Below the pieces are notes generated by a model, which saw only the letters and a program-made list of their open reading frames with translations, had not been told where the DNA came from and searched no databases. Positions 4,036-62,979 of a stretch of 64,000 bases of DNA are shown here, one piece after another (within the stretch, counting starts at the first letter, position 1; each line of letters opens with the position of its first letter). The translations under genes were made by a program, and so were the position numbers. The stretch is from Alphaproteobacteria bacterium. Lineage in GTDB: Bacteria > Pseudomonadota > Alphaproteobacteria > DATDPM01. Location of the stretch: positions 49,773-113,772 of the forward strand of contig JBGQJC010000001.1 in the NCBI GenBank assembly GCA_041498815.1, given 5' to 3'.

Positions 4036-5268
4036 TTAGCTCGCCCGATCGCGGACTTCGCCCGGCTTTATGAAGCGCACGGACGGCAGCTGCACGGTCA
4101 CGGTGGTGCCCATTGCGATACGGCTTTCGAGCGTGAGCGTGCCGCCGTGGGCCTCCGCCATCGCTTTGGCGAGCGGCAGGCCAAGCCCGGTGCCGTCGAA
4201 CCGGCGCCCGAGCTTGCTGTCGATTTGACCGAAGGGCATCAGGGCCTTTGCGATGTCTTCTTCGGCAATCCCGATTCCGGTGTCGGTGACGACGAGCAAG
4301 ACACGGCCTTTGACGTCGCGCTCGACCCGAACCAGGACGCGTCCGCCGGGAAGCGTGAACTTCACCGCATTCGCAACCAGATTGAGGAGAAGCTGGCGCA
4401 GCAGCCGCTTGTCGCCGCGGATGAAGCAAGGATGCTCCCGGATGTCGGTTTCGAGCCGCACGCGGCCTTCGGTCGCGCGTTGGCGCACCAGGCGTAGCGT
4501 CCCATCGACGAGTGTTTTGGCCGCCACCGTTTCTTCGCGCAGCACGAGCTTGCCGGCCTCGATCCTCGAGATGTCCAGGATGTCGTTGATGATTTCGAGC
4601 AGATGCTCGCCGCTCGATAAGATGTCCTGCGCGTAGCCGCGGTAGCGTTCATACGCGTCCGCTCCGAAAGCGCCATCGGCGATGATCTGCGAGAATCCGA
4701 TGATGGCGTTCAAAGGCGTGCGCAGCTCATGGGTCACGGCGGCCAGGAATTGGGCCTTGCTCTTGTTCGATTCCTCGGCCGCAAGCTGGGCGCGGTCGAT
4801 CTCGTGGTGCCGCTGAATCAAATGTTTGGCCGCGGCGTGCAACAGCGATTTTGCCGTGGCGATGCCGAGGTACCGGCCGGCCTCGGTCACGATGAGGGCG
4901 CCCGGGAGCGCGCCGCAGCATTCTTCCGCGGCCAGACTGGCCACCCGCTCCAGATCGTCCGAAACCTCGACCGCGATAGGGGCCCGGTTCATGATTTTCT
5001 CGACCGGTTCGTTTTCCCCATGGTTCGGGGTAAACCGGCCGGTCATGCCGGCGAAGAGCTCGGCGCGGGATACGAGCCCGACGGGTTTGCCCTCCTCCAC
5101 CACCGGAAGTGCTGGAAGGTCGGGATGGGCGGTGAAAATCGCTTCCGCCTCGCCGATCGTGGCGCCGCTCCCCAGGGGCGCAACCAGGCGCACCCAGCCG
5201 GCGGCGGGTGTTTTCTCCGGCGATTCTTCGATCGCCGGCGCAATCGCAGCGGATTTTGCTAAAATCAC
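4036..5268 (-). CDS. sensor histidine kinase (N-terminal CBS-pair-like sensor, HisKA, HATPase_c)
   Basis: H-box [16 protein letters not shown]. The C-terminal segment GTGLGLPLAK belongs to the ATPase domain. The N-terminal ~150 aa resemble tandem CBS motifs. The gene lies 24 bp upstream of the S8 protease on the same strand. Confidence 0.8.
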   Translation of the reverse strand: MILAKSAAIAPAIEESPEKTPAAGWVRLVAPLGSGATIGEAEAIFTAHPDLPALPVVEEGKPVGLVSRAELFAGMTGRFTPNHGENEPVEKIMNRAPIAVEVSDDLERVASLAAEECCGALPGALIVTEAGRYLGIATAKSLLHAAAKHLIQRHHEIDRAQLAAEESNKSKAQFLAAVTHELRTPLNAIIGFSQIIADGAFGADAYERYRGYAQDILSSGEHLLEIINDILDISRIEAGKLVLREETVAAKTLVDGTLRLVRQRATEGRVRLETDIREHPCFIRGDKRLLRQLLLNLVANAVKFTLPGGRVLVRVERDVKGRVLLVVTDTGIGIAEEDIAKALMPFGQIDSKLGRRFDGTGLGLPLAKAMAEAHGGTLTLESRIAMGTTVTVQLPSVRFIKPGEVRDRAS

Positions 5269-11208: not shown

Positions 11209-12552
11209 TCAAACCGCGATCACGTAATCGAACCAGAAGGGCCCTTCGGTAAATCCGGGCACCGGCTTGGGCGCCGGGCCGTCGGGCGCCCCGGCAACGT
11301 GGATCGAATCGCTGCGGACGACTCCCTTGGCCTTGTTCTTTAGCGCGTCCATCAATTTCCCGAAGGGGATCGAGGGCCAGGGCTTGTTCTGCGTCGAAAT
11401 CATCGCCGCGAATCGCCCTTGGGTCATTTTCTCCAACGCGCTTTTCGGGGTCGCGTTGTGGCTCCCGTGGTGGCCGACCTTGTAGAAATCGACGCTCGCC
11501 AGGATGTCCTTGGCCTCCGGAGATTCGATCCAGGATTGCCAATTTCCGTATTGGGCGTCCCCCGGGAACAGCAGGTTCCGCCCCTTGTAGGAGAAAAGCG
11601 TTACCAGGCTGGTGTTGTTCACCGCCTGATCCAGCGTGAACGCCAGTCCTTCCGGGTCCCCCGCCATTTGCTCCAGCGCCGCCGCGTCCATCTTGGACAG
11701 GATTCCGGACGGGTAATCCTTGGCGCTTGCGTTCCACTTCTTCGCATTCGGGAACGGGGCGACGGCGTTCACCGTTTCGGCGGCGCTGCCGGCAAGCCGG
11801 AGGAATCGGTCGCCGGCCGGCGGGTCCATCTTGGCGAGGAATTTGGGGTCGCGCGGCGGCCCCAGCACGCGCACGGAAAGCCCGGCGATTCCGGCCGCGT
11901 TCTCGAGCTTGTCGCCGGCTTGATAAAATCGGACCCGGCCTCCGGAGATGCCGTTCTTCAGCAATGCCATGGCTTCGGCATTCGGGGCGAGATTTTGGAT
12001 CGCGTATTGCGCCTGCGCGTCCACTTTGGACATCGCCAGGAAGTGGTGCTCAAGCAACCCGATCAGGGCGAGCTGCTTTCTTTTGAGCTTCGCGGCGGCC
12101 GCGTCGTCCGGGTTTTCGGTCCAGGGCATCCACACTTCACCCACCGACAGTTTCCGGAACGCGTCGCCGAAGCGGCCGAATCCCGACACGTGATCTTGAT
12201 GGGCGTGGGTGGCGATCACGAGCGCGAGCCTGCCGCCGGATTCGCGGGCGATGTCGTTGACCGCATCGCCGATGGTCTTGGCGTCTCCCTGAGAATGCAC
12301 GCCGCAGTCGACCAGGATATGCGCCGCCCCGGATTCGGTCGGCAGCGACAACAGGAAGCAATCGCCGAATCCCACCCGGTACATCCGGATGCGGATTTGG
12401 CCGGCATTCGCGCCGGCCGGACCCGGACGCTTGGCGCGCGGCGCCGGCGTTCGCGCGTTTCTGCGAGGCGCTTTTCCCACATTCCGGGCGCGGGCCCTGC
12501 CCTTCCGGGCCGTCTGGCGCGGCTTTGCGCGTTTTCGCGGCGGTCTCGCCAT
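11209..12552 (-). CDS. MBL-fold metallo-hydrolase (alternative start at 12384)
   Basis: HAHQDHVSG (HxHxDH) and a distal VGHHGSHN block. The long start at 12552 has a GGGGA Shine-Dalgarno and lies 3 nt after the upstream stop, so the two genes are translationally coupled. Confidence 0.75.
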   Translation of the reverse strand: MARPPRKRAKPRQTARKGRARARNVGKAPRRNARTPAPRAKRPGPAGANAGQIRIRMYRVGFGDCFLLSLPTESGAAHILVDCGVHSQGDAKTIGDAVNDIARESGGRLALVIATHAHQDHVSGFGRFGDAFRKLSVGEVWMPWTENPDDAAAAKLKRKQLALIGLLEHHFLAMSKVDAQAQYAIQNLAPNAEAMALLKNGISGGRVRFYQAGDKLENAAGIAGLSVRVLGPPRDPKFLAKMDPPAGDRFLRLAGSAAETVNAVAPFPNAKKWNASAKDYPSGILSKMDAAALEQMAGDPEGLAFTLDQAVNNTSLVTLFSYKGRNLLFPGDAQYGNWQSWIESPEAKDILASVDFYKVGHHGSHNATPKSALEKMTQGRFAAMISTQNKPWPSIPFGKLMDALKNKAKGVVRSDSIHVAGAPDGPAPKPVPGFTEGPFWFDYVIAV

Positions 12553-43261: not shown

Positions 43262-43423
43262 TTACTTCTTTTCCACCTTGCATTCGGGTTTATCGACGTT
43301 TTCCTTCTTCGTGCAATCGACCTTCGGCTTGTCCTCTGCGAATGCCGCGACGGGCATGAAGCTGACGGTGCCGACAGCCGTCACGAAGGCAGCGGCCATG
43401 GCCGAGAGAAGGACTTTTTTCAT
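43262..43423 (-). CDS. small secreted protein (53 aa, Lys-rich, two Cys)
   Basis: Manual translation gives MKKVLLSAMAAAFVTAVGTVSFMPVAAFAEDKPKVDCTKKENVDKPECKVEKK. It has a signal peptide. It is absent from the ORF track because it is under 60 aa. Confidence 0.45.
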   Translation of the reverse strand: MKKVLLSAMAAAFVTAVGTVSFMPVAAFAEDKPKVDCTKKENVDKPECKVEKK

Positions 43424-44064: not shown

Positions 44065-44433
44065 TCATCCTCCACGATGGCGCATGAAGTTGACGAGGAA
44101 TATCGCCATGCTCGCAAGCGTGAGCAGCGAGCCGACGATGACCATGGGATAGCTCTCGGTGGTGATGACGATGAAAATGCCGGGGATGAAGATGACCGCG
44201 CCTAGATTCGCGACCCAGAAATGGACCTTGGTGAGAGGGCTTTCCCGCATCGCCGGATAGGCGCGGTAAACCAGGCCGAAGATCGCCAGCGTGACCCACC
44301 CGACCAGATTGATATGGGCGTGGACGTCCCGATAGTCGAAGGCGTGGCCGATTCCGATGACGATTCCGATTGCCATGCCCAGGACCGCGTAAACGACCGC
44401 GACGGTGATGAACAGAACGTCGACGTTCTTCAT
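44065..44433 (-). CDS. four-TM membrane protein (hypothetical)
   Basis: Strongly hydrophobic helices and a clean start. Confidence 0.55.
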   Translation of the reverse strand: MKNVDVLFITVAVVYAVLGMAIGIVIGIGHAFDYRDVHAHINLVGWVTLAIFGLVYRAYPAMRESPLTKVHFWVANLGAVIFIPGIFIVITTESYPMVIVGSLLTLASMAIFLVNFMRHRGG

Positions 44434-44614
44434 AACGCCCCCCCTCCAGCCGCTCTCTCCGCGCGGATTTCCCGGTGGCCGCGATTATAGGGAGAGAACG
44501 GCCTCGCCGAAAGGCAGCTTGCGACGGGACGGAGCCGCTTGCGGCGCAGGTGCCGGAGCCCCAATTCGGTGGTATTCTTCGGGCTTCGGCAAATCCCAGG
44601 CAAAGGAGGAGAGC

Positions 44615-45022
44615 ATGACTCTCGCGCGAGCCCTTGGTTTGGCGGCGGGCCTGTGCCTCATGTGCGCCGCGGGCGGTTCCGCGGCATTGGCCCTGGAAGG
44701 CAACACGGTATCCGGTGCGGCGTATTCCGGTTTTCTGGTCCCGGCCGGATGCGGCGGATATGGCGGCGCCGACTGCCCGACCGACGTATCCAAGGCCAAG
44801 CCGGAATCGACCGAAGCGGATTCGCAGCGGAAACCGCAAGACCAATGCGCCAAGGGCGGCTACGGCGCGGCCGACTGCAAGTCACGCGATCCGAGCAACG
44901 GGGCGCCCGATTCCGCGGCGGACCCGACGCCTCCCCAGGGATGCGGCGGTTACGGCGAGGCGGCATGCCCGAGTGGCGCCGGCGGCAGCTTCGACAAGGG
45001 AGGAAAAACTGACCCTTATTAG
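44615..45022 (+). CDS. secreted Cys-rich repeat protein (C-x2-GGYG-x-ADC units)
   Basis: A signal peptide and three repeats of the type GCGGYGGADCP / QCAKGGYGAADCK / GCGGYGEAACP. Confidence 0.6.
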   Translation: MTLARALGLAAGLCLMCAAGGSAALALEGNTVSGAAYSGFLVPAGCGGYGGADCPTDVSKAKPESTEADSQRKPQDQCAKGGYGAADCKSRDPSNGAPDSAADPTPPQGCGGYGEAACPSGAGGSFDKGGKTDPY

Positions 45023-45320
45023 ACTCGCCTGCGGGCTTTTCGTCTTGGCGTTCGGCTTGTCGCTCGACGGTCCGGCGAGTTTGGCCGGCGCTTACGTCGC
45101 CGATGCGGTGCCCGCAACTGGAGATCGGAATCCGGAAGGGGATTCGAAAATGGCACCCACACAGGGTGCGGCCCCGTCATCCGGCGAAGACCCGCAAGGC
45201 CCGATGCATCAATGCAAGCTCGGTTGCGAGCCCCAGTGCCGGGCGTTCGGCAACGCGGATTTGGCGGCGGAATGCCGCGACGCCTGCGAAGCGAAGTGCC
45301 AGACGAATAACGGGCAGTAA
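45009..45320 (+). CDS. secreted Cys-rich protein with apparent non-ATG start
   Basis: A signal-peptide-like LTLIRLACGLFVLAFGLSL is in frame and preceded by the AAGGGAGG Shine-Dalgarno at 44997-45004. The C-terminus is CKLGCEPQCRAFGNADLAAECRDACEAKCQ. The only start options are CTG (45009), ATT (45018) or TTG (45045). Confidence 0.4.
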   Translation: MTLIRLACGLFVLAFGLSLDGPASLAGAYVADAVPATGDRNPEGDSKMAPTQGAAPSSGEDPQGPMHQCKLGCEPQCRAFGNADLAAECRDACEAKCQTNNGQ

Positions 45321-45338
45321 TCAACGCCGGGGAAGGTC

Positions 45339-45656
45339 TTGAAACTCATTGCGCCGGAACGGGCCGCGGAATTGATGCGCCAGGGCGCTATGCTGGTGGA
45401 CGTCCGCGAGGCGGACGAATTTGCGCGCGAACACATCGTCGGCGCCAAGCACCGGCCCTTGAGCGCGATCGCGGCCGGCGGGGCGGCCGGCGCGGCCGGC
45501 CAAGCCGTGATCTTCCATTGCCGCAGCGGGGGGCGAACGTTGATCAACGCGGAAAAGCTCTTGCCGCTTGCGCAGGGCGATACCTACATCCTCGAAGGCG
45601 GGATCGAAGCCTGGAAGCAGGCGGGATTGGCGGTCGAAGCCGGCCAAAATAGTTAG
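45339..45656 (+). CDS. rhodanese-domain sulfurtransferase (single domain)
   Basis: Active-site loop FHCRSGGRT. A TTG start follows a GGGAAGG Shine-Dalgarno. Confidence 0.75.
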   Translation: MKLIAPERAAELMRQGAMLVDVREADEFAREHIVGAKHRPLSAIAAGGAAGAAGQAVIFHCRSGGRTLINAEKLLPLAQGDTYILEGGIEAWKQAGLAVEAGQNS

Positions 45657-45696
45657 GCGTTCAGGGGCGGCGATTGGCGGGGCAAAGGAGGAAGGC

Positions 45697-46188
45697 ATGA
45701 TCTCCGGCGGAATCCTCGGCGTTGCGGCAGCCCTGTCGCTGGCGCTCATCGTTCATCCGGCGGAAGTTTCGGCGCGATGCGGCCTGGGCGGCTACGGTGT
45801 TTCCCAATGCCCGGATTACTTCACCACGACCAAGCGGAATTACGGCGGCGAGGCGGAAACCTATGAGCCGCCGCCGATGGCGGCGCATCCGGCGCCTTGG
45901 GATCAATGCGCCAAGACCGGCTGGGGCATCACCGGATGCCCGGGATACAAAACCGGGATCACGCCGGGCGCGCCGGAGTCCGGGTATCGGCAAAACCTGG
46001 ACGATTGCATGAAGACGGGCTGGGGCATTACCGGATGCCCGAATTGGCCTACCGGAACCACGCCCCAGCCGCCGGGATCGCCCCGGAGGCCCGCTTGGTC
46101 GCAGGAAATTCAAGAGAGATGCGGCAAGGCGGCCGATCCCGAATGCTCCGGGGGCGAAAAGCCCGCGTCATCGCCGCCGCCCTATTAA
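45697..46188 (+). CDS. secreted Cys-rich repeat protein (C-x-TGWGITGCP units)
   Basis: A strong Shine-Dalgarno aaggaggaagg, a signal peptide, and repeats QCAKTGWGITGCPGY / DCMKTGWGITGCPNW. It shares DQCAK.G.G with the 44615 protein. Confidence 0.65.
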   Translation: MISGGILGVAAALSLALIVHPAEVSARCGLGGYGVSQCPDYFTTTKRNYGGEAETYEPPPMAAHPAPWDQCAKTGWGITGCPGYKTGITPGAPESGYRQNLDDCMKTGWGITGCPNWPTGTTPQPPGSPRRPAWSQEIQERCGKAADPECSGGEKPASSPPPY

Positions 46189-46209: not shown

Positions 46210-46665
46210 CTAGTCCGGCTCCTGCGGTTTCAGGTGCGGCAAGAGCTTGCGCGCGAATTCCGGAGTGATGTGGGCGAAGAGCTCTTTGTCGAAGGTCGCG
46301 CCCATCGCCGCCTCGAGGAAATAAGTTTGCCCGGCCGCGGCGTTCACCGTCAGATCCGGAATCATCGGCAGTCCATCGCAGGTAAACGTGTGGCGGCCGG
46401 GCGCGATCTGAACGACCGCGTAGCGCCTTTGGTCCAAGGTCACGATCTTCCGCTCGCCGTCATAGATCGTCTTGGACGATCCGAATACGGTCGGCGTACT
46501 CATGTTGAGCACGTAGAGGGCCGCCATTCCGGGAGCGGGCGCTTCGATTTGCGGCGGCGCGGAAGCCCGGTTCGCGCAGCCGGACGCCATCAGCGCGGCG
46601 GCCAACAGCGCGGCAAGATTCCGGCGGCGCCGGTTAGGACCGGAACAGGGCAAAGTAGAGGACAT
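46210..46665 (-). CDS. DUF2846-like lipoprotein
   Basis: Internal start MSSTLPC...LMASGC with a lipobox, and a conserved ...YAVVQIAPGRHTF... core. Confidence 0.55.
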   Translation of the reverse strand: MSSTLPCSGPNRRRRNLAALLAAALMASGCANRASAPPQIEAPAPGMAALYVLNMSTPTVFGSSKTIYDGERKIVTLDQRRYAVVQIAPGRHTFTCDGLPMIPDLTVNAAAGQTYFLEAAMGATFDKELFAHITPEFARKLLPHLKPQEPD

Positions 46666-46810
46666 ACAGCCAGCCCAGGACTCCGTGGATAATGGCCCAA
46701 AGGATGGAATGGTTCGCGGTATAAGAAATCGCGATCGCCAGCGCCGAGCCGAAGCCGATGCCGTATTTCGCGCCTTCGACACGGAAACTATAGGCTTGGA
46801 CTCCGTTCAT
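46634..46810 (-). CDS. YqaE/Pmp3-family small membrane proteolipid (58 aa)
   Basis: ATG preceded by GGGGAGGAAGG. The protein is MNGVQAYSFRVEGAKYGIGFGSALAIAISYTANHSILWAIIHGVLGWLYVLYFALFRS. Its 3' end overlaps the next start by about 30 nt in another frame. Confidence 0.5.
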   Translation of the reverse strand: MNGVQAYSFRVEGAKYGIGFGSALAIAISYTANHSILWAIIHGVLGWLYVLYFALFRS

Positions 46811-46896
46811 GCCTTCCTCCCCGATTGCGATGCCCGGGGCGCCATCAAATTTGCCCGCCCGAGCGAGAAGGGCAACCGGCATCGAACGACCCTTCG

Positions 46897-47931
46897 TCAA
46901 TGCCCGGGATTTTGACGATCGGCCGGAAGGCGGTCAATAAGCGGTGCAACCTGTTCGGCGACCAGCGCGTTGCCGTTCTCATTCAAGTGCGGATCCACGG
47001 CGAAATAGTCGCTCTTGTCGAAAAGAGGCGCCAGGTCGACGACGTTTCGAGCGCCGTTCTCGGTCAGCAACGCGAGGAGGGTTCGGTGCGGGTTAACGAA
47101 TTTGGGATTGCCGTCGTAAAATCTCTTGTCGGGGATCACGAAATAAACGACCGGTACTTTCGCGGCGATGACATCGAACGCTTTGAATACCGTTGCCGCC
47201 TTGTTCTCGGGTACGACCTCACCGGGCCGTCCAAAGACGAACGTCAACATTCGTTCGGCGTGCCGTACGATTGAAGTCAGCAAATAGCTGTTCCGCACGA
47301 CCGGCCAGGATTCATAGGCCGTGATTTGAATGAAGCGCCCGTTGACATCCGAATAGAGTCGCTCGGTCTGGACGCGGATGGGTCCGCCGTTTTCGTCCAC
47401 GCCGAGCCAATGGTTTATTTCGAAATCCCTTGAGTCACTGAACGTGGTGACGAACATGATCAAGAGATCCGGTTGAAGTTGCAGACCTTCCTTCGTGACG
47501 TATGCGTAATAAGTGTCGGGAGAATAAGCGTCGTGAAAGCCGGCGTTGATGACCTCGATCCCGTTGTTTCGAAACTTGGAAGCAAGTATTGCGGCGAAGC
47601 TCTTGTTGTCTCCCATTCCATATCCCACGGCAACGGAATCACCAAGCAGGATAATGCGTTTTACGCCGGCCGGTTTGGCCACCGACTTCGGAAATTCACC
47701 GAGGTAGCCGAGCGTGTTGGTGCGGTAGGTGACGTCGTATTCCGGCGCCACATGGCGAAAAGTCAGATTCGGAGCCAGGGTGAAGGGAAGATAATCGCTT
47801 TTCACCAGGAACTGCGGCATGGAATGTATGAAATACGGTCCAATGAGAATCCGAAGGCCGATTTCGGCAAGAACCAGGCAAACGACGATCGTTAGCGACA
47901 GCAGCATCAGATTCTTCGTCCGGTCGTTCAT
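46897..47931 (-). CDS. SGNH/GDSL hydrolase-type esterase
   Basis: N-terminal TM, block I LLGDSVAVGYG and block V DPHLNENGNALVAEQV. Somewhat AT-richer than its neighbours. Confidence 0.75.
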   Translation of the reverse strand: MNDRTKNLMLLSLTIVVCLVLAEIGLRILIGPYFIHSMPQFLVKSDYLPFTLAPNLTFRHVAPEYDVTYRTNTLGYLGEFPKSVAKPAGVKRIILLGDSVAVGYGMGDNKSFAAILASKFRNNGIEVINAGFHDAYSPDTYYAYVTKEGLQLQPDLLIMFVTTFSDSRDFEINHWLGVDENGGPIRVQTERLYSDVNGRFIQITAYESWPVVRNSYLLTSIVRHAERMLTFVFGRPGEVVPENKAATVFKAFDVIAAKVPVVYFVIPDKRFYDGNPKFVNPHRTLLALLTENGARNVVDLAPLFDKSDYFAVDPHLNENGNALVAEQVAPLIDRLPADRQNPGH

Positions 47932-47969
47932 TTATCGCTCCGTGGAGCCGGCGGGATTGGCGCACATGG

Positions 47970-49805
47970 CTAGTCGGGATCGAAGACATTTCTGTAATCG
48001 CGCTTAAGCGACGGGTTCTGCTCGCTTTTCACGAGATAGAGATTGCCCACCGCCAGCGAGTCCAATTCGGTGCCCATGAAGCAGCGGAACGCATCCTCGG
48101 GCGTGCACACGATCGGTTCGCCGCGCACGTTGAAACTGGTGTTGCACAGCACGGGACAGCCGGTCTTCGCCTTGAAGACCGAGAGCAAGGCGTGGAAGCG
48201 CGGGTTAGTCTCGCCGTGGACGGTTTGGATGCGCGCCGAGTAGTCGACGTGGGTCACCGCGGGTATTTCGGAGCGCGGCACCTTGAGCTTCTCGATGCCG
48301 AAAAGCTTCTGCTCTTGCGCCGTCATCTGGCGCCGGCGGCGCTTCGCCACGTCGGCAACCAGCAGCATGTAAGGGCTGTCGGTGTCGAGATCGAACCAAT
48401 CGGAGACGTCGTCCCGCAACACGGCGGGCGCGAACGGGCGGAACGATTCGCGGTACTTGACCTTGAGGTTGAGGGCCGATTGCATTTCGGGCCGGCGCGC
48501 GTCGGCGAGGATCGAGCGATTGCCGAGCGCCCGCGGCCCGAACTCCATGCGGCCCTGGAACCAGCCGAGCACCTTGCCGTCCGCCAGATCCGCGGCCGCG
48601 CGCGCGATGACCGCGTCGCCGCCGAGCCGCAGGAAACGGGCGCCCGCGGCTTCGAGCCGTTTGGCGCTGTCATCGTCGTCGAATTCGGGACCGAGATAGG
48701 CGCCGCTCATGCCGTCCTGCCGGTTGGCGACCTGGCGCGGGCGATCCTTGTAGACGTGATAGGCGGCGAGTGCGGCGCCCAAGGCCCCGCCGGCGTCCCC
48801 GGCCGCGGGCTGGATCCAGATGCGCTTGAATTTGCCGTCGCGCAAAATCTTGCCGTTCGCGACGCAGTTGAGCGCGACGCCGCCGGCAAGGCACAGATTT
48901 TCCGCGCCGGTCTCGCTTGCTATGCCGCGCGTGAGGCGCAGCACGATTTCCTCGGTCACGGTCTGGATCGACGCGGCGAGATCCATGTGGCGCTGCGAGA
49001 GCGCCTCATCGGCTTTACGCGCCGGCCCGCCGAGCAGCCGGTCGAATTTGCCGCTGGTCATCCGCAGGCCGGTGCAATAGTCGAAATACGACTGGTCGAG
49101 GCGGAAAGTGCCGTCGGGCTTGAGGTCGACGAGATTCTCGAGAATGAGCTTGGTGTATTTGGGCTCGCCGTAAGGGGCAAGACCCATGAGCTTGTATTCT
49201 CCCGAATTGACCTTGAAGCCGGTGTAATAGGTGAAGGCCGAGTACAAGAGGCCGAGCGAATGGGGGAAGTGCAATTCCTTCACCATCTCGAGATGGTTCC
49301 TGCTTCCGAACCCGACCGAGGTCGTCGCCCACTCGCCGACGCCGTCCATGGTCAGGATCACCGCTTCTTCAAACGGAGAGGGAAAGAAGGCGGACGCCGC
49401 GTGGCTTTGGTGATGTTCGCCGAAGAGAAGCCGGTTCTGCCAGTCGTAGTCCGCCGCGAATTTCCCGAGCTCGTCGCGCAGGAGCTGCTTCTGGAACAGC
49501 TTTTCGCGCAGCCAAAGCGGGATCGCCATGCGGAAGGACGCGAATCCCCTGGGCGCGAAGGAAAGATAGGTTTCGAGCAGGCGCTCGAACTTCAGGAACG
49601 GCTTGTCGTAGAAGACGACGTGGTCGACCGAATCCAGCGAGATCCCGCCTGCCCGCAAACAGTATTCGATCGCGTGGCGGGGAAAGCCGGCATCGTGCTT
49701 CTTGCGCGTGAAACGCTCTTCCTGGGCCGCGGCCACGATGGCGCCGTCCCGGAGAAGGGCGGCGGCGCTGTCGTGGTAGAAGGCGGAAATGCCGAGGATG
49801 TGCAT
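47970..49805 (-). CDS. carbamoyltransferase (NodU/CmcH family)
   Basis: MHILGISAFYHDSAAAL starts a Kae1/YgjD-like fold. The C-terminal domain is the carbamoyltransferase domain. Confidence 0.9.
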   Translation of the reverse strand: MHILGISAFYHDSAAALLRDGAIVAAAQEERFTRKKHDAGFPRHAIEYCLRAGGISLDSVDHVVFYDKPFLKFERLLETYLSFAPRGFASFRMAIPLWLREKLFQKQLLRDELGKFAADYDWQNRLLFGEHHQSHAASAFFPSPFEEAVILTMDGVGEWATTSVGFGSRNHLEMVKELHFPHSLGLLYSAFTYYTGFKVNSGEYKLMGLAPYGEPKYTKLILENLVDLKPDGTFRLDQSYFDYCTGLRMTSGKFDRLLGGPARKADEALSQRHMDLAASIQTVTEEIVLRLTRGIASETGAENLCLAGGVALNCVANGKILRDGKFKRIWIQPAAGDAGGALGAALAAYHVYKDRPRQVANRQDGMSGAYLGPEFDDDDSAKRLEAAGARFLRLGGDAVIARAAADLADGKVLGWFQGRMEFGPRALGNRSILADARRPEMQSALNLKVKYRESFRPFAPAVLRDDVSDWFDLDTDSPYMLLVADVAKRRRRQMTAQEQKLFGIEKLKVPRSEIPAVTHVDYSARIQTVHGETNPRFHALLSVFKAKTGCPVLCNTSFNVRGEPIVCTPEDAFRCFMGTELDSLAVGNLYLVKSEQNPSLKRDYRNVFDPD

Positions 49806-49822
49806 CCTGCGGGCGGCCGCGA

Positions 49823-49975
49823 TCAGAAGAGCGTGTAAATGAAGGGGGCGACCGCGGAGCCCATGGTGAGCGCGATGAGCCCGCCGAATATCACCATCAT
49901 GACGAGGACCGGCAGCAACCAATATTTTTTGCGCACCCTCAGGAACATCCAAATCTCGGACAGAAACGAAAGCAT
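49823..49975 (-). CDS. DUF5989 family small membrane protein (50 aa)
   Basis: MLSFLSEIWMFLRVRKKYWLLPVLVMMVIFGGLIALTMGSAVAPFIYTLF. Its start lies 2 bp after the SxtJ-like stop. Confidence 0.7.
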   Translation of the reverse strand: MLSFLSEIWMFLRVRKKYWLLPVLVMMVIFGGLIALTMGSAVAPFIYTLF

Positions 49976-49977
49976 GT

Positions 49978-50415
49978 TCAGAACTGATTCTTCATCGATT
50001 CGGGAGGCGGCCCCGGCGGGTTCCGCGGGATCCAGTAGCTGGCGGCGGCGGCATCCCGTCGCAACCGGAGGGGATCGTTTCCGAACGCGCGCATGAGCAC
50101 GCCGACTGGGGTCACGAAAAGATAGTAAAGCAGCCCGAGGAAAACCGGACTGACGATGCGGTTGAGCAGGAGGCCGAGCCCGGTCCAGAGGCGGTTGAGC
50201 GGCGCCAGACCATCCGGCCAGGCCAGTGCCAGGACCAGGAACAGGGCCGAAAGCCCGAGCGCCCACCAGCGCACCGGTCCATGCCCTTCCAGGACCAAGG
50301 GGGCTAGAGCCACGATCGCGAAGAAGGCGGCCATGACCAGCCCGAAGGTGCGATCGGAGGAGCCGTGGATCTCCTCGGGCCGGCTGAAATCCTCGTGCAT
50401 TCGGGACCGTTCCAT
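49978..50415 (-). CDS. SxtJ-like membrane protein
   Basis: About three TM helices. This protein is the usual partner of DUF5989 and a carbamoyltransferase in this conserved gene trio. Confidence 0.6.
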   Translation of the reverse strand: MERSRMHEDFSRPEEIHGSSDRTFGLVMAAFFAIVALAPLVLEGHGPVRWWALGLSALFLVLALAWPDGLAPLNRLWTGLGLLLNRIVSPVFLGLLYYLFVTPVGVLMRAFGNDPLRLRRDAAAASYWIPRNPPGPPPESMKNQF

Positions 50416-50714
50416 TTAGTGGGACGTTGCCAGGGTATTAAGTATCTTGTTAAAGATTTGAAGGGAAGAGCCAAGGGAATCGCGATCGAAGCGGGCGGAT
50501 CGATGCCAGGGGGGTGGCCTTTTGTCCAGCGCCGCGAGGGGCTTGCCGGGCGCTTCCCGGGTATGGCGGATTGCCGGACCGGAACAGGAAACTCCGGAGC
50601 CCCTTTTGAGCCGATGACGATCGCGTCGAGCGAGACCCCTTGCGGCGGTAAGTTCACGCGCCCGCACATAGCCTGAGTTGCGTGAACCATTGGCCTGGAG
50701 GGCCAGGCAAGGGC

Positions 50715-51695
50715 ATGCCGTCGAAAATCAAATCCATTCTGTCTTCCGCGGCGCTGGCCGCCGTTTCGGTGGCCGTTTCGCTTGGCGCCGCCGAGGGCAT
50801 CTTGCGGATCAAGAACGCATCGATGACCAATTACGACATCGAGATGTGGCGTTACGCCAAGGAGCTGAAGATCCGCAGCGACGATCCCGCGCTCGACTTC
50901 GACCATTTGAAATCGAAATCCGCCGTCCTCGAGAACGTCGCCATACGGCTCAACGATTGGGGCTTGCGCGGCGGACCCATAGCACCCGCGCCCGGCAGGC
51001 GCATCCTCTTTCTCGGCGGGTCGATTACCTTGGGCTGGGGCGTGGCCGAAGAGGACACGGTCGAGGCCAGGCTCGAAAAGATGCTGGCCGGCCAAAAAGC
51101 CGAGGTCCTCAACGGCGGGGTCGGCAACTACAACGCCGAGCGTTACGTATCGCGCTTCTTTCACGAACTCACCGGGCTGAAGCCCACCGATATCGTCGTG
51201 CACTATTTTCTGCGGGATGCCGAGGATCTGCCGCCGGGCGGCGGGAACTTTCTGCTGCGGCACAGCGAGCTCGCGGTCACCTTGTGGATCGCCGCCCACA
51301 GGACGTTCGACAAATCCGGGGAGGCGTCGCTGGTGGAGCATTACCGGCAAGCGTACCGGCCGGACGCCCCCGGATTCCTCAAGATGAAGGACGAGCTGAA
51401 AAAGCTCGCCGATTACGCCAAAGAGAACGGCATCCGCATCTACCTCGCCATGGTCCCCGACGTCCACGACTTGATCGATTACAAGTTCGCATTCGTGCAT
51501 GACATCATGCGCCGGATCGCGGAGACGGACGGCTATACCTACATCGACCTGTTGCCCGCCTTGCAAGGGCGGCCGCCGCAGGAACTCTGGGCTATGCCGG
51601 GCGACCCGCACCCCAATGCGCTGGGCCACGAAGCAATGGCGCAGGCGATTTTTCCGGCGATCGCGAAAACGGGCGAGAGCCCAAGCGGCCGATGA
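50715..51695 (+). CDS. SGNH/GDSL hydrolase (AlgX/AlgJ-like, alternative start at 50682)
   Basis: N-terminal signal/anchor, block I LFLGGSITLGWG and block V GDPHPNALGH. Confidence 0.75.
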   Translation: MPSKIKSILSSAALAAVSVAVSLGAAEGILRIKNASMTNYDIEMWRYAKELKIRSDDPALDFDHLKSKSAVLENVAIRLNDWGLRGGPIAPAPGRRILFLGGSITLGWGVAEEDTVEARLEKMLAGQKAEVLNGGVGNYNAERYVSRFFHELTGLKPTDIVVHYFLRDAEDLPPGGGNFLLRHSELAVTLWIAAHRTFDKSGEASLVEHYRQAYRPDAPGFLKMKDELKKLADYAKENGIRIYLAMVPDVHDLIDYKFAFVHDIMRRIAETDGYTYIDLLPALQGRPPQELWAMPGDPHPNALGHEAMAQAIFPAIAKTGESPSGR

Positions 51696-51734
51696 GCGCG
51701 GACGCTCGATCCACCCGGAAAGGCTCGAGCCGCC

Positions 51735-53129
51735 ATGCTCTTTAGCTCGCCCGTTTTTTTCCTGTTCTTCGCCGCGTATTTTTTGCTGCATCTCGTGGTT
51801 CCCAAGCGCTTCAGGATTTATCTGATCATCGCCGGCAGCACGGTTTTCTACGCCTGGTGGCGGCCGGAATATGCCTGGATCCCGTATCTGCTGATGGCGA
51901 CGGCGTTCGGCGGCGCGCTGTGGATGGGGCAAGCGGATAGCCGCGGCCGGCGCAAGCGGCGCGTCCTATGCACCATCGCCGCGCTGTTCCTCCCCCTCCT
52001 CTTCTTCAAATACACGAATTTCATCTACCGCGACGTGATCGGCCCGTTCATCGGCAACCACGACAAGCTCATGGATCTCCCGCTGCCGCTTGGCGTGTCG
52101 TTCATCACCTTCACCCTCACGGCCTACGTCGTGGATGCGTTCAAGGGCAAGTTTGCCGTGAGCCGGTCGGCTTCGACGGTGCTTGGCTATGTGCTCTTCT
52201 TTCCCCATTTGATTGCCGGCCCGATTCTGCGGCCCGCCGACCTCATTCCGCAACTCGAACGCCCAAAGCCGGCGGCCCTTCGCCGCGCCGCGGTGCCGAT
52301 CGCGATCTTCACGCTCGGTCTCGTCAAAAAGCTGGTGTTCGCCGATCAGATCGGCGAGGCCGTCAACACGATTTACGCCCAGGCCGGGCCGAGCGGCCCG
52401 GCCACGCTGCTCGCGATCTACGGTTTCGCGGTCCAGATATACTGCGACTTCAGCGGCTATACCGACATGGCCATTGGTCTCGCGCTTATGCTCGGCATCC
52501 GGCTGCCGAACAATTTCCTCCGGCCTTACGCTTCAGAATCCCTGATCGATTTCTGGCAGCGGTGGCACATCACCCTTTCCTATTGGCTGCGGGATTATCT
52601 CTATATCCCGCTCGGCGGCAACCGCGGCAGCCGCGTCCGGCAGGCCGGCAACGTCATGATCACCATGGTGCTGGGCGGGCTTTGGCACGGCGCGAATTGG
52701 ACTTTCGTGATCTGGGGCATGCTCCACGGCATCGGCGTCGTTTTCGTGCAAGCGCTGAAACGGGATTTTCCCGGGCATTGGCTGCTTCGGATGCCGCGGT
52801 GGCTGGGCGTGTTCGTCACCTTCCACTTCGTCACCCTGGCTTGGGTATTTTTCCGGGCCGAAAGCCTTGGCAAGGCGCTCGCCATGCTCGCCGCCCCGTT
52901 TGCGGGCGGCTGGGAAAACGCTTACCCCGTGTTCGCCGCGAATGTTTTGCCGATCCTGCTGATCGTGATGTTCTTCGGCGTGCACCGTTACGACGATCAC
53001 CGCCGCATCAAGGCCGCGGTCCGGTACGTGCGCCCCGAAATCGTCTGGCCCGCGATCTTGCTCGGCTGGATTATCGCGATCGCGCTCAGCCAAGGCAGCT
53101 CGGCCAAGTTCATCTATTTCGATTTCTGA
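51735..53129 (+). CDS. MBOAT family membrane-bound O-acyltransferase (AlgI/DltB-like)
   Basis: Polytopic. It has the invariant His in the WHITLS..LRDY block and the GGLWHGA block. Confidence 0.9.
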   Translation: MLFSSPVFFLFFAAYFLLHLVVPKRFRIYLIIAGSTVFYAWWRPEYAWIPYLLMATAFGGALWMGQADSRGRRKRRVLCTIAALFLPLLFFKYTNFIYRDVIGPFIGNHDKLMDLPLPLGVSFITFTLTAYVVDAFKGKFAVSRSASTVLGYVLFFPHLIAGPILRPADLIPQLERPKPAALRRAAVPIAIFTLGLVKKLVFADQIGEAVNTIYAQAGPSGPATLLAIYGFAVQIYCDFSGYTDMAIGLALMLGIRLPNNFLRPYASESLIDFWQRWHITLSYWLRDYLYIPLGGNRGSRVRQAGNVMITMVLGGLWHGANWTFVIWGMLHGIGVVFVQALKRDFPGHWLLRMPRWLGVFVTFHFVTLAWVFFRAESLGKALAMLAAPFAGGWENAYPVFAANVLPILLIVMFFGVHRYDDHRRIKAAVRYVRPEIVWPAILLGWIIAIALSQGSSAKFIYFDF

Positions 53130-62547: not shown

Positions 62548-62979
62548 CGGATGCCGCATCGAACGAAGCTTCTCGACGATTTGGGAGTCGTGGTCGTCCG
62601 GTTTCGGGACGGCGTCACCTTCGTCGACGTCAAGACCGCGATGGACGAGGTGCCGGCGATGCCCGGGTTCCGGGAGGGACTGAAGGCGGTCGCCGATTTC
62701 CGGGATTGCACCACGGCCCTGCGCGGGGCGGAGGTGAAGAAGCTTGCGGATTACGCCAAACGCGCCGATCCGGCTTGGGGCGAAACCAGATGGGCGCTGC
62801 TGGCCGCAAGCGACATCATTTACGGGTTGTCCCGCATGTATATGGTTTATACGGCGGGATACAAGGTGACGAGCCATGCATTCCGGACCGCCGGGGACGC
62901 CAACGACTGGCTCGGCATCGGCGTCGACGTGGACGATATCTTGAAGCGGGCGGGCAACAAAATCCCGGAAAACTCCTAG
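62548..62979 (+). CDS. hypothetical protein
   Basis: Clean ATG and balanced composition. Its stop overlaps the convergent coaD stop. Confidence 0.4.
   Translation, partial: RMPHRTKLLDDLGVVVVRFRDGVTFVDVKTAMDEVPAMPGFREGLKAVADFRDCTTALRGAEVKKLADYAKRADPAWGETRWALLAASDIIYGLSRMYMVYTAGYKVTSHAFRTAGDANDWLGIGVDVDDILKRAGNKIPENS

What the first reader, a model, noticed from the sequence alone, without database searches (positions are those of the whole stretch)
44615..46188. Cluster of three secreted Cys-rich repeat proteins flanking a single-domain rhodanese, one with an apparent non-ATG start under a perfect Shine-Dalgarno
Protein 1 repeats the unit C-x2-GGYG-x-ADC three times and protein 3 repeats the unit C-x-TGWGITGCP. 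They share DQCAK.G.G, so they are diverged paralogs. Protein 2 (CKLGCEPQC...ECRDACEAKCQ) has a textbook signal peptide in frame but no ATG. The perfect AAGGGAGG at 44997-45004 is followed by CTG and ATT codons and overlaps the stop region of gene 1. A rhodanese (FHCRSGGRT) sits between them, and rhodaneses can act in thiol, persulfide or disulfide chemistry. The ensemble looks like a periplasmic Cys-rich module, perhaps metal or sulfur binding, or a bacteriocin-like peptide family with a dedicated sulfurtransferase.
Basis: partly seen in the sequence, partly recalled or inferred. Interest (0 to 1): 0.5.

Follow-up and report, generated by a model that had tools for sequence, protein, structure and literature searches.

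The report
Secreted cysteine-loop proteins beside leftover rhodanese
Four co-directional genes encode three exported cysteine-rich proteins of a rare, unnamed family plus a cytoplasmic rhodanese left over from a sulfide-detoxification operon; one protein's ATG start has mutated to CTG, and the family's function is unknown.

Summary
Genes g1 (44615-45022), g2 (45009-45320), a rhodanese (45339-45656) and g4 (45697-46188) lie co-directionally with small gaps.

- **Repeats.** The unit C-x1-3-G-[YW]-G-x3-C occurs six times in the six-frame translation of the 64 kb, all in g1 and g4.
- **g2.** It carries a Cx3Cx3C-x10-Cx3Cx3C domain predicted as a helical hairpin.
- **Family.** It has no Pfam or NCBIfam model. 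About 13 representatives exist among 1.84 billion proteins, and the two with named records are uncultured Alphaproteobacteria MAGs.
- **Modules.** Loop-repeat and hairpin modules are fused in some relatives and adjacent in most, so they probably act together.
- **g2 start.** The CTG at 45009 sits where a homologue has ATG, behind the same TCGACAAGGGAG ribosome-binding sequence. It is an ATG-to-CTG substitution. It is present in four related contigs from separate samples, and g2 evolves under relaxed constraint (pN/pS about 1-1.8).
- **Rhodanese.** It is a YgaP-type cytoplasmic domain lacking its membrane tail. Relatives carry a persulfide dioxygenase, a SqrR/BigR-like regulator, YgaP and TauE at this locus. 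It is an operon remnant, not a shown dedicated partner.

Function is inferred only: exported disulfide-rich envelope proteins, possibly reacting with sulfur species. Interest is modest.

The parts
44065..44433 (-). mem122: 122-aa four-helix membrane protein, transcribed divergently from g1
   Evidence: It aligns to cbb3 oxidase CcoN residues ~321-400, including the HxH motif. It gives a weak Pfam COX1 hit. It lies divergently next to a Cys-rich gene in the window, L005, L011, L017 and L031.
44484..44489 (-). TATAAT (-10-like) on the minus strand, upstream of mem122
   Evidence: GATTATAG is conserved in the mem122 / Cys-rich intergenic region of the window, L017, L005 and L011. This is inferred from conservation only.
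44570..44578 (+). Extended -10-like element TGGTATTCT upstream of g1
   Evidence: TGnTAT(T/G)CT is conserved at the same relative place in the window, L017, L005 and L011. The consensus scan did not call it. This is inferred.
44615..45022 (+). g1: signal peptide plus three C-(x)-GGYG-x3-C loops (44750-44776, 44846-44878, 44942-44968) separated by Pro/Ala/Ser/Asp-rich linkers
   Evidence: pN/pS is 0.10-0.30 in five of six pairwise comparisons among close relatives. Homologues are P0003 and P0011-P0014.
44973..44975 (+). In-frame GTG, an alternative canonical start for g2, 12 codons upstream of the CTG
   Evidence: The JGI gene call of the orthologue P0007 uses it. Only a weak GAGG lies 12 nt upstream (read from the sequence).
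44996..45003 (+). Shine-Dalgarno AAGGGAGG for g2, inside the last codons of g1
   Evidence: It has the same architecture as the ribosome-binding sites of g1 (AAAGGAGGAGAGC-ATG) and g4 (AAAGGAGGAAGGC-ATG). It is homologous to TCGACAAGGGAG upstream of the ATG of the g2-like gene in L011.
45009..45320 (+). g2: CTG start (positional orthologue of ATG), signal peptide, disordered linker, six-Cys helical hairpin (45213-45299)
   Evidence: pN/pS is 1.05-1.8. GC3 is 0.73 in this frame.
45339..45656 (+). Single-domain, cytoplasmic YgaP-type rhodanese with active-site loop FHCRSGGRT and no membrane tail
   Evidence: Pfam PF00581 E 1.5e-14. Best solved-structure match is the E. coli YgaP rhodanese domain, E 2.6e-22. 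It is 52-59% identical to the N-terminal domain of the Rhodanese-YgaP genes of L001, L005, L012, L016 and L017.
45697..46188 (+). g4: signal peptide, one CGLGGYGVSQC loop (45778-45810), two C-x-K-TGWGITGC loops (45907-45939, 46006-46038) and a degenerate C-x7-C pair
   Evidence: pN/pS is 0.22. The AlphaFold model has low confidence (pLDDT 42).

Best explanation
**What it is (well supported).** A lineage-specific set of four co-directional, closely spaced genes, g1-g2-rhodanese-g4, in an uncultured alphaproteobacterium. Co-transcription is inferred, not shown.
- g1 and g4 are built from short cysteine-closed loops with a Gly-Tyr/Trp-Gly tip, strung on disordered Pro/Ala/Glu/Lys-rich linkers. 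Their signal peptides look Sec-type.
- g2 is exported in the same way and ends in a helical hairpin with three CxxxC-spaced cysteines on each helix.
- The two module types belong together. They are fused into one protein in some relatives and encoded side by side in most others.

**The locus.** This is a rearranged version of a conserved locus. In relatives it carries a type II persulfide dioxygenase, a SqrR/BigR/YgaV-type two-cysteine repressor, membrane-anchored rhodanese YgaP and the TauE family permease (annotated as sulfite exporters). In the window only the cytoplasmic rhodanese domain of YgaP is left, sandwiched between the Cys-rich genes.

**The g2 start.** g2's missing ATG is an ATG-to-CTG point substitution at the ancestral start, retained behind an intact strong ribosome-binding site. 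g2 is therefore either translated weakly from CTG (about 1-2% of AUG in E. coli), perhaps helped by coupling to g1, whose stop lies 9 nt downstream, or from GTG 44973. Or it is on its way to being lost. Its relaxed pN/pS fits both.

**How it works (inferred, low confidence).** After export the cysteine pairs are oxidised to disulfides. This gives abundant acidic envelope proteins whose exposed disulfide loops and triple-disulfide hairpin act together. Most plausibly they form a thiol/disulfide buffer that reacts with sulfide, polysulfide or sulfite handled by the neighbouring detoxification genes, or with the adjacent haem-oxidase-like membrane protein mem122. The rhodanese works in the cytoplasm and does not modify them directly.
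For: **Anatomy.**

**No known family.**

**Rarity.** Only 2 and 1 hits among 5.8 billion clustered proteins for g4 and g1 alone. About 13 true representatives exist among 1.84 billion; P0023 and P0026 are spurious.

**Fusion and adjacency.**
- The L001 gene at 4334-4930 equals three loops plus the hairpin.
- P0004-P0006 and P0008 have the same architecture.
- The table, for the partial hairpin gene of L020, shows loop and hairpin genes fused or adjacent in 7 of 9 lineages that have enough sequence.

**Start codon.**
- L011 reads tcgacaagggagcgggtcATGacc; the window reads tcgacaagggaggaaaaaCTGacc.
- Four of the five stand-alone g2-like proteins begin M-T-x-x-R or M-T-R, matching (L)TLIR in the window; the L021-24 copy begins MISNR.
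- CTG is present in four related contigs from separate samples.
- CUG initiates at 1-2% of AUG in E. coli (bioRxiv 10.1101/063800).

**Relaxed constraint.** g2 shows 9-11.5 nonsynonymous against 2-3.5 synonymous differences. g1 shows 3-6 against 9-11 in comparisons with the window.

**Hairpin.** AlphaFold gives helices 65-80 and 83-101 at pLDDT about 78-80. The nearest solved folds are plant alpha-hairpinins.

**Rhodanese and locus history.**
- L017 reads mem122 | loop gene | PDO(-) | ArsR-YgaP-TauE | DUF2846(-).
- The window reads mem122 | g1-g2-rhodanese-g4 | DUF2846(-).
- In L001, L012 and L016 the Cys-rich genes directly follow TauE on the same strand (gaps of about 66-74 nt after TauE and about 15-18 nt between the two Cys-rich genes), without the promoter-like element seen upstream of g1.

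**Topology.** No signal peptide or hydrophobic segment is visible in the rhodanese sequence, whereas all three Cys-rich proteins have N-terminal signal-like sequences.
Against: - No experiment or expression data exist, and the organism is uncultured.
- All loci whose flanks could be compared, except L025, share the same surrounding genes. The link to the sulfide-detoxification genes could therefore be inherited synteny and not shared function.
- The AT-rich operator-like repeat upstream of the ArsR gene is absent upstream of g1 and the other genes next to mem122. Those have their own conserved promoter-like element.
- L031 keeps the mem122 / loop-protein pair with no PDO or YgaP within 8 kb. 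L025 has a loop protein with none of these neighbours. L021-24 has a hairpin gene followed by a loop gene with no rhodanese between them.
- Disulfide formation, the export route and any reaction with sulfur species are inferred only.
- The g4 model is unstructured (pLDDT 42).
- The fold matches for g2 are not statistically significant (E above 1).
- g2's pN/pS near or above 1 is as expected for a dead gene.
Confidence: 0.5

Rival explanations
1. g2 is a dead gene. The ATG-to-CTG change abolished useful translation, and the intact reading frame only reflects how recent the loss is. Functionally the window has two Cys-loop proteins (g1, g4) and a rhodanese.
For: - pN/pS for g2 is 1.05-1.8, against 0.10-0.30 for g1 in five of six comparisons and 0.22 for g4, in the same contigs.
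- CUG initiates at only about 1-2% of AUG in E. coli.
- Gene callers skipped g2 in L003 and L004.
- At 2-4% divergence in 63% GC DNA, an open 104-codon frame is weak evidence of selection.
Against: - All six cysteines and the hairpin core are unchanged in the variants. Substitutions in the signal peptide mostly keep it hydrophobic (A>V, F>I; one variant has C>Y).
- The strong Shine-Dalgarno with a 5-nt A-rich spacer is intact in four related contigs from separate samples.
- The hairpin partner is retained next to, or fused with, loop proteins in 7 of 9 lineages.
- GTG 44973 offers a canonical in-frame start.
- The g1 stop, 9 nt downstream of the CTG, allows re-initiation coupling.
Confidence: 0.35
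2. g1 and g2 are made as one protein, as in the fused relatives. This would occur through a +1 ribosomal slip on the A-run (GGA AAA ACT, 45004-45008) just after the Shine-Dalgarno-like GGGAGG, in the manner of prfB.
For: - Fused homologues exist.
- A +1 slip of tRNA-Lys from AAA 45005-07 to AAA 45006-08 would enter the g2 frame exactly at CTG 45009. A Shine-Dalgarno-like sequence lies 1 nt upstream (read from the sequence).
Against: - There is no stop or rare codon in the A site (ACU).
- There is no stimulatory RNA structure (z-score 0.42).
- The fusion product would carry the hydrophobic segment LIRLACGLFVLAFGLSL internally. That would act as a stop-transfer anchor and leave the hairpin in the cytoplasm. 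The natural fusions have no such segment.
- The CTG aligns with a true ATG start.
Confidence: 0.03
3. The Cys-rich proteins are periplasmic metal-binding (Cu, Cd, Hg or As) proteins, and the neighbouring ArsR-family regulator in relatives is a metal sensor.
For: - The proteins have many cysteines in regular spacing.
- CxxxC-lined helices recall copper storage proteins (my recollection, not tested).
- An ArsR/SmtB-family regulator lies in the relatives' locus.
Against: - Among solved structures the regulator is closest to NolR, followed by the persulfide sensors HlyU, YgaV, SqrR and BigR. The HlyU alignment shows a matching cysteine pair. Metal sensors SmtB, NmtR and CzrA score far lower.
- It sits with a persulfide dioxygenase (E 1e-104 to 4ysk), YgaP and TauE.
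- C-x7/9-C loops are not a usual metal site.
- The signal peptides look Sec-type, which places the proteins in an oxidising periplasm that favours disulfides.
- The window has no metal transporter or chaperone among the genes examined between 39.5 and 54.8 kb.
Confidence: 0.1
4. They are secreted antimicrobial or competition peptides: bacteriocin-like, or a bacterial counterpart of plant alpha-hairpinin defence peptides.
For: - The top structural analogues of the g2 hairpin are alpha-hairpinins: VBP-8, luffin P1, and nigellin-1.1 (TM-score 0.81, rmsd 1.2 A).
- The proteins are small, secreted and disulfide-rich.
Against: - The fold matches are not significant (E above 1).
- The mature proteins are acidic (pI 4.4-5.8).
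- No immunity, processing or dedicated export genes appear in any locus.
- The genes sit in a conserved chromosomal locus among envelope lipoproteins.
Confidence: 0.07

Closest known systems
E. coli YgaP (membrane-anchored rhodanese) and the ygaVP / BigR / SqrR sulfide-response operons
   Same: - The window rhodanese is most similar to the YgaP rhodanese domain among solved structures (E 2.6e-22), with the catalytic loop conserved (FHCRSGGRT against FHCQAGKRT).
- Relatives carry the full set at this locus: a two-cysteine ArsR-type regulator, Rhodanese-YgaP, TauE and a type II persulfide dioxygenase.
- The biology of these operons is described in PMC9774250 and PMC5823870 (from their abstracts).
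   Different: - The window copy lacks the C-terminal membrane domain.
- The regulator, dioxygenase and TauE are absent from all 64 kb.
- No described ygaVP or bigR operon that I know of contains secreted Cys-rich repeat proteins. That is my recollection; I did not search for it.
Plant alpha-hairpinins (CxxxC-Xn-CxxxC helical-hairpin defence peptides, vicilin-buried peptides)
   Same: - Both are predicted helix-loop-helix structures with cysteines spaced i, i+4 on both helices.
- Alpha-hairpinins are the nearest solved folds (6o3q, 6o3s, 2nb2).
- A review of the family is PMC7191063.
   Different: - The window protein has three cysteines per helix, not two.
- It is bacterial, carries a signal peptide that looks Sec-type, and is acidic.
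- It is fused or paired with loop-repeat proteins.
- There is no sequence homology, and the fold match is not significant.
Non-canonical bacterial start codons (AUU of infC and pcnB; CUG as a near-cognate)
   Same: A near-cognate codon sits at the optimal distance (5 nt) from a strong Shine-Dalgarno. CUG supports about 1-2% of AUG initiation in E. coli (10.1101/063800).
   Different: - No evidence of a regulatory role like that of infC.
- Here the codon is a recent substitution of an ancestral ATG, in a gene under relaxed constraint.
cbb3 oxidase subunit CcoN (for the neighbouring membrane protein mem122)
   Same: mem122 aligns to CcoN helices around residues 321-400 and keeps the HxH motif and the following GW.
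   Different: It has only 122 residues and four helices, with no other oxidase subunits nearby. Haem binding is untested.

Membership tests
Rhodanese / YgaP | Rhodanese homology domain | tested here: met
   Pfam PF00581 E 1.5e-14, 54.7 bits against a cutoff of 22.2.
Rhodanese / YgaP | Catalytic cysteine in the six-residue active-site loop (C-[RQ]-x-G-x-R-[ST]) | tested here: met
   FHCRSGGRT aligns with FHCQAGKRT of E. coli YgaP.
Rhodanese / YgaP | C-terminal two-helix membrane domain (PF11127) | tested here: not met
   The protein ends at residue 105, right after the rhodanese domain. Only 40 nt separate it from g4. Relatives (180-183 aa) have the domain.
SqrR/BigR/YgaV-type sulfide-response operon | Two-cysteine ArsR-family repressor encoded with the rhodanese | tested here: not met
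   tblastn with the L001 regulator finds nothing in the 64-kb window. It is present in L001, L005, L012 and L017.
SqrR/BigR/YgaV-type sulfide-response operon | Persulfide dioxygenase and TauE-type exporter in the cluster | tested here: not met
   No match in the window. Both are present in relatives.
Alpha-hairpinin | CxxxC-Xn-CxxxC motif on a helix-loop-helix | tested here: met
   The g2 sequence is CKLGCEPQC-x10-CRDACEAKC. Predicted helices are 65-80 and 83-101 at pLDDT about 78-80.
Alpha-hairpinin | Significant structural or sequence similarity to family members | tested here: inconclusive
   The top Foldseek hits are alpha-hairpinins, but E is 1.4-7.8. There is no Pfam match.
Alpha-hairpinin | Inter-helix disulfide ladder | not testable with these tools
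   This needs mass spectrometry or NMR of the protein.
RiPP / bacteriocin precursor | Neighbouring modification enzyme, dedicated exporter or immunity gene | tested here: not met
   No such Pfam families occur in the window genes examined between 39.5 and 54.8 kb or in the relatives' loci.
prfB-like programmed +1 frameshift | Slippery codon with an in-frame stop or hungry codon, and a Shine-Dalgarno about 3 nt upstream | tested here: not met
   An A-run and a Shine-Dalgarno-like sequence are present, but the A-site codon is ACU and no stop follows until 45020. There is no RNA structure.
SoxY-type sulfur carrier | C-terminal GGCGG swinging arm | tested here: not met
   None of g1, g2 or g4 ends in GGCGG. 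There is no NCBIfam or Pfam hit.
New loop-repeat / six-Cys hairpin family (proposed here) | Signal peptide, at least one C-x1-3-G-[YWF]-G-x3-C loop and/or a Cx3Cx3C-x8-18-Cx3Cx3C hairpin, with the two modules fused or adjacent | tested here: met
   The window has 6 loops and 1 hairpin in adjacent genes. The same holds in 7 of 9 lineages.

The most novel reading that the evidence does not exclude
The loop-repeat proteins, the triple-CxxxC hairpin protein and the divergently encoded four-helix, CcoN-like membrane protein (mem122, HxH retained) form a previously unknown envelope thiol/disulfide relay. It would resemble MsrPQ or DsbB in layout: a small haem-binding membrane protein exchanging electrons with abundant periplasmic cysteine-loop proteins. 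These would trap or carry sulfide, polysulfide or sulfite arriving from, or exported by, the persulfide-detoxification genes. In this reading the CTG start of g2 tunes the hairpin subunit to a low level relative to g1 and g4.
Probability: 0.1. Interest if true: 0.7.

Novelty: new variant of a known kind. Interest (0 to 1): 0.35.

Why it matters
- **An unnamed family.** If the inference holds, this defines a small, unnamed family of exported cysteine-loop and cysteine-hairpin proteins. It is found so far only in metagenomic contigs; the two with named records are uncultured Alphaproteobacteria MAGs. The family repeatedly sits in or beside a persulfide-detoxification locus. That would point to a periplasmic side of bacterial sulfide and sulfite handling that is not described for the ygaVP, bigR or sqrR systems.
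- **A natural start-codon case.** The g2 gene is a clean natural example of an ATG-to-CTG start substitution behind an intact strong ribosome-binding site, with ATG-bearing paralogues for comparison. It could be used to study what happens to a gene after start-codon loss.
- **Limits.** None of this overturns current understanding. The family is rare and its function is unproven.

Tried and rejected
- **Family libraries.** Pfam and NCBIfam scans of g1, g2 and g4 gave nothing above threshold. The hits were chance-level: zf-CCHC_5 at E 0.074 and TIL at E 0.027.
- **Single-sequence searches.** Searches with g4 and g1 found almost nothing. Progress came only from reading the neighbour of P0002 and then searching with profiles.
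- **Spurious hits.** P0023 and P0026 from the representative search are long repetitive proteins without the motif.
- **Alignment for locus search.** The 14-sequence alignment A3 was too diverse, so a five-sequence alignment was used.
- **g4 structure.** The prediction had pLDDT 42 and gave no usable fold, so no fold search was run on it.
- **Shared operator.** I looked for a shared operator between the ArsR promoter and the promoters of the Cys-rich genes. The AT-rich repeat occurs only upstream of ArsR.
- **RNA structure at the g1/g2 junction.** None was found (z-score 0.42).
- **Frameshifted-fragment reading of g2.** Rejected. Four related contigs from separate samples show no indels, and g2 has its own signal peptide and ribosome-binding site.
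- **Programmed +1 frameshift.** Considered and given about 3%.
- **Organism.** It could not be identified below 'Alphaproteobacteria MAG'.
Full report
**1. What is in the sequence**

The region 44615-46188 holds four co-directional ORFs.
- g1: 44615-45022, ATG start, 135 aa.
- g2: a frame open from 44619 to the stop at 45320. It has a sequence that looks like a signal peptide and begins at the CTG at 45009.
- Rhodanese: 45339-45656, TTG start, 105 aa.
- g4: 45697-46188, ATG start, 163 aa.

The spacings are a 14-nt overlap, then gaps of 18 nt and 40 nt. No terminator-like site lies inside the cluster. One transcription unit is therefore likely, but this is inferred.

The pattern C-x(1-3)-G-[YW]-G-x3-C occurs six times in the six-frame translation of the whole 64 kb. 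Three copies are in g1 and three in g4. The pattern Cx3Cx3C-x(8-16)-Cx3Cx3C occurs once, in g2. The units are visible even at the DNA level, and one repeat family links g1 to g4. The mature proteins have 6, 6 and 8 cysteines, are acidic (pI 4.4-5.8), and are rich in Pro, Gly, Ala, Ser and Thr. Two small corrections apply. The Shine-Dalgarno AAGGGAGG is at 44996-45003. The g2 frame also contains an in-frame GTG at 44973 and more distant TTG, GTG and ATG codons.

**2. A rare, unnamed, modular family**

Pfam and NCBIfam have no model for g1, g2 or g4. Single-sequence searches of 5.8 billion clustered proteins returned only near-identical metagenomic copies and one 38%-identical protein, P0002.

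Reading the contig that encodes P0002 (L001) gave the key result. The gene just upstream of the g4-like gene encodes a 198-aa protein with a signal peptide, three CGGYG-type loops and, at its C-terminus, QCKVGCAPQCNAFGNADLAAQCRESCEAKC. That is g1 and the g2 domain in one polypeptide.

A profile search then recovered a range of architectures:
- three loops plus hairpin (P0004, P0005);
- one loop plus hairpin (P0006, P0008);
- hairpin alone with its own ATG and signal peptide (P0010);
- loops alone (P0011-P0014).

An exhaustive HMMER search of 1.84 billion representatives with a g4 profile found 15 hits. Thirteen are true small secreted three-loop proteins, and two are spurious. The two genome records that carry the family are both titled 'MAG: Alphaproteobacteria bacterium'.

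**3. The two module types travel together**

I scanned every fetched locus for both motifs and for the neighbouring genes. Loop-repeat and hairpin genes are fused or directly adjacent in seven of nine lineages that have enough sequence:
- the window group;
- L001/L012;
- L013/L015;
- L016;
- L011 (hairpin gene, then loop gene);
- L021-24 (hairpin gene, then loop gene, 7-nt gap);
- L020 (loop gene, then a partial hairpin gene running off the contig end).

In L005 and L017 a hairpin gene lies 5-7 kb away. Fusion in some genomes and adjacency in others is the classic sign of proteins that work together. This is an inference.

**4. The g2 start codon**

Four of the five stand-alone g2-like proteins begin M-T-x-x-R or M-T-R (MTFSR, MTRMIG, MTMIR, MTMSR). 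The L021-24 copy begins MISNR. The window's g2 reads (L)TLIR from the CTG. At the DNA level the L011 homologue has tcgacaagggagcgggtcATGacc, and the window has tcgacaagggaggaaaaaCTGacc. The CTG is therefore the positional orthologue of an ATG, behind the same ribosome-binding sequence. Its context also mirrors the ribosome-binding sites of g1 and g4 (AAAGGAGGA, four more bases, then ATG).

The CTG, the Shine-Dalgarno and the open frame are present in four related contigs from four separate samples. These are 96.9-98% identical to the window and have no indels. A sequencing artefact or a frameshifted fragment is therefore excluded.

Codon-level comparison of these contigs gives the following pN/pS values.

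| Gene | pN/pS | Differences |
|---|---|---|
| g1 | 0.10-0.30 in five of six comparisons (1.04 in L002 vs L014, 4 differences) | 3-6 nonsynonymous, 9-11 synonymous against the window |
| g4 | 0.22 | not tabulated here |
| Rhodanese | 0.65 | not tabulated here |
| g2 | 1.05-1.8 | 9-11.5 nonsynonymous, 2-3.5 synonymous |

The g2 counts are small, but they differ from g1's pattern. My own binomial estimate, taking g1's ratio as the null, gives about 1e-3. This was a hand calculation, not a tool result. The six cysteines and the hairpin core are unchanged. Signal-peptide changes are mostly hydrophobic-to-hydrophobic, though one variant has C>Y.

In E. coli, CUG initiates at about 1-2% of AUG (bioRxiv 10.1101/063800). 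My reading is a recent ATG-to-CTG substitution. The outcome is either weak translation or a gene in early decay, and I cannot separate these with sequence alone. Weak translation could come from the CTG, helped by the strong Shine-Dalgarno and perhaps by re-initiation after the g1 stop 9 nt downstream, or from GTG 44973.

A prfB-like +1 slip on the A-run would land exactly in the g2 frame. It lacks a stop or hungry codon and an RNA structure. It would also bury a hydrophobic segment in the middle of the fusion, unlike the natural fusions. I give it about 3%.

**5. Structure**

AlphaFold with a seven-sequence alignment predicts three parts for g2:
- an N-terminal helix at residues 2-19, the signal peptide;
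- a disordered linker at residues 20-64;
- a helical hairpin at residues 65-80 and 83-101, with pLDDT about 78-80.

This places Cys69/73/77 and Cys89/93/97 at i, i+4, i+8 on the two helices. The nearest solved structures are plant alpha-hairpinins: VBP-8, luffin P1, and nigellin-1.1 with TM-score 0.81 and rmsd 1.2 A. Their E-values are above 1, so this is a fold analogy and not evidence of membership. The g4 model is unstructured (pLDDT 42). That is what one would expect for short loops on flexible linkers, but it gives no fold information.

**6. The rhodanese and the history of the locus**

The rhodanese has no signal peptide or hydrophobic segment visible in its sequence. Its best match among solved structures is the cytoplasmic rhodanese domain of E. 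coli YgaP (E 2.6e-22), with the catalytic loop conserved. It is 52-59% identical to the N-terminal domain of 180-183 aa Rhodanese-YgaP proteins in the relatives.

In those relatives the YgaP gene sits in a cluster with three other genes:
- An ArsR-family regulator. Its best solved-structure match is NolR, followed by the persulfide sensors HlyU, YgaV, SqrR and BigR. The printed HlyU alignment shows a cysteine pair in matching positions.
- A TauE-family permease (Pfam PF01925).
- A type II persulfide dioxygenase (E 1e-104 to 4ysk).

The flanks are conserved. L017 reads PG-binding lipoprotein, small53, lipo157, mem122(-) | loop gene | PDO(-) | ArsR-YgaP-TauE | DUF2846(-). The window reads the same left flank, mem122(-) | g1-g2-rhodanese-g4 | DUF2846(-). 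The regulator, dioxygenase, TauE and nitroreductase have no match anywhere in the 64 kb.

The window's single-domain rhodanese is thus what remains of YgaP after rearrangement of this locus. In L001, L012 and L016 the Cys-rich genes follow TauE on the same strand with short gaps, and they lack the promoter-like element seen upstream of g1. There they may be co-transcribed with the sulfide-response genes.

Several observations argue against an obligatory link:
- The AT-rich operator-like repeat upstream of ArsR is not found upstream of g1.
- L021-24 has a hairpin gene and a loop gene without a rhodanese between them.
- L031 keeps mem122 | loop gene with no PDO or YgaP within 8 kb.
- L025 has a solitary loop protein.

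The most constant neighbour is mem122. This is a 122-aa four-helix protein that aligns to cbb3 oxidase CcoN and keeps its HxH motif.

**7. Mechanism: shown and inferred**

Shown by tools:
- the gene anatomy;
- the repeats;
- family rarity and modularity;
- the fusion and adjacency pattern;
- orthology of the CTG with an ATG;
- relaxed constraint on g2;
- the YgaP-type rhodanese;
- the synteny with the sulfide-detoxification cluster.

Inferred from general knowledge:
- export through the Sec pathway;
- oxidation of the cysteine pairs to disulfides in the periplasm;
- cytoplasmic action of the rhodanese, and hence no direct sulfur transfer to the exported proteins.

Speculative, about 0.2-0.25:
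- The disulfide loops and hairpin act as an envelope thiol/disulfide buffer. This buffer would react with sulfide or polysulfide (disulfide plus HS- gives a persulfide) or with sulfite exported by TauE (sulfitolysis).
- They might also exchange electrons with mem122.

Rivals:
- g2 is dead (0.35 for that sub-question).
- Metal binding (0.10).
- An antimicrobial role (0.07).
- A frameshift fusion (0.03).

**8. Comparison and novelty**

The rhodanese is an ordinary member of the rhodanese family of the YgaP type, minus the membrane domain. The Cys-rich proteins belong to no described family. The hairpin resembles alpha-hairpinins in design only. I rate the whole as a new variant of a known kind, namely small exported disulfide-rich repeat proteins beside remnants of a known sulfide-response operon. 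It is not categorically new.

Interest is modest (0.35). The family is undescribed, and the start-codon case is clean. But the family is rare and confined to uncultured bacteria. Nothing yet shows a function, and the most eye-catching feature, the non-ATG start, is best explained by a simple point mutation with relaxed constraint.

Noticed in passing
window 44065-44433 (-): mem122 is a 122-aa four-helix membrane protein that aligns to cbb3 oxidase subunit CcoN residues ~321-400. It keeps the HxH motif (DVHAHINLVGW against GHVHAGALGW). It is the most constant neighbour of the Cys-loop genes, including in L031, where no sulfide-detoxification genes are nearby.
   Followed up: partly
window 43262-43423 (-): small53 is a 53-aa secreted, Lys-rich peptide. 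Its ~24-aa mature part has a single C-x10-C pair (DCTKKENVDKPEC). It is conserved in L005, L017 and L031, so it is another tiny two-cysteine exported product in the same locus.
   Followed up: partly
window 46986-53029: A ~6-kb block is absent from the 98%-identical contig L003, which joins window 46985 directly to 53030. The block holds a GDSL-like gene, a carbamoyltransferase, an SxtJ-like gene, a second GDSL-like gene and an MBOAT acyltransferase. It is a strain-specific insertion, probably for polysaccharide modification.
   Followed up: partly
L013 8660-9190 and L015: In this lineage the persulfide dioxygenase, ArsR regulator, YgaP and the 5' part of TauE are deleted. Only a 27-aa dioxygenase remnant and TauE from residue 85 remain, while the fused Cys-rich gene and the g4-like gene are kept.
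   Followed up: no
L001 2476-2569; L005 5872-6093; L017 11160-11290: An AT-rich repeated element (ATATATTAGC ... CTAAATTAGC) follows a TTGAC upstream of the SqrR/BigR-like regulator gene in three lineages. It is probably the operator. It is absent upstream of the Cys-rich genes next to mem122.
   Followed up: partly
L013 11309-13861: Three further hairpin-type genes lie in a row. One appears disrupted: its hairpin (11309-11713) breaks off after the first CxxxCxxxC. This suggests local expansion and decay of this module.
   Followed up: no
window 46634-46900 (-) and L022 3764-3934 (-): A small conserved membrane protein (core ...VEGAKYGIGFGSALAIAISY..NHSILWAIIHG..WLYV.YFALF..) lies next to the locus in both the window and the L021-24 lineage. 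It has no family hit.
   Followed up: no
window 62716-62958 (+): This is a homologue (54% identity) of the 82-aa protein that sits between the nitroreductase and the persulfide dioxygenase in L001. It is the only piece of that block found elsewhere in the window. The 82-aa protein encoded downstream of P0016 in L019 was not compared with it.
   Followed up: no
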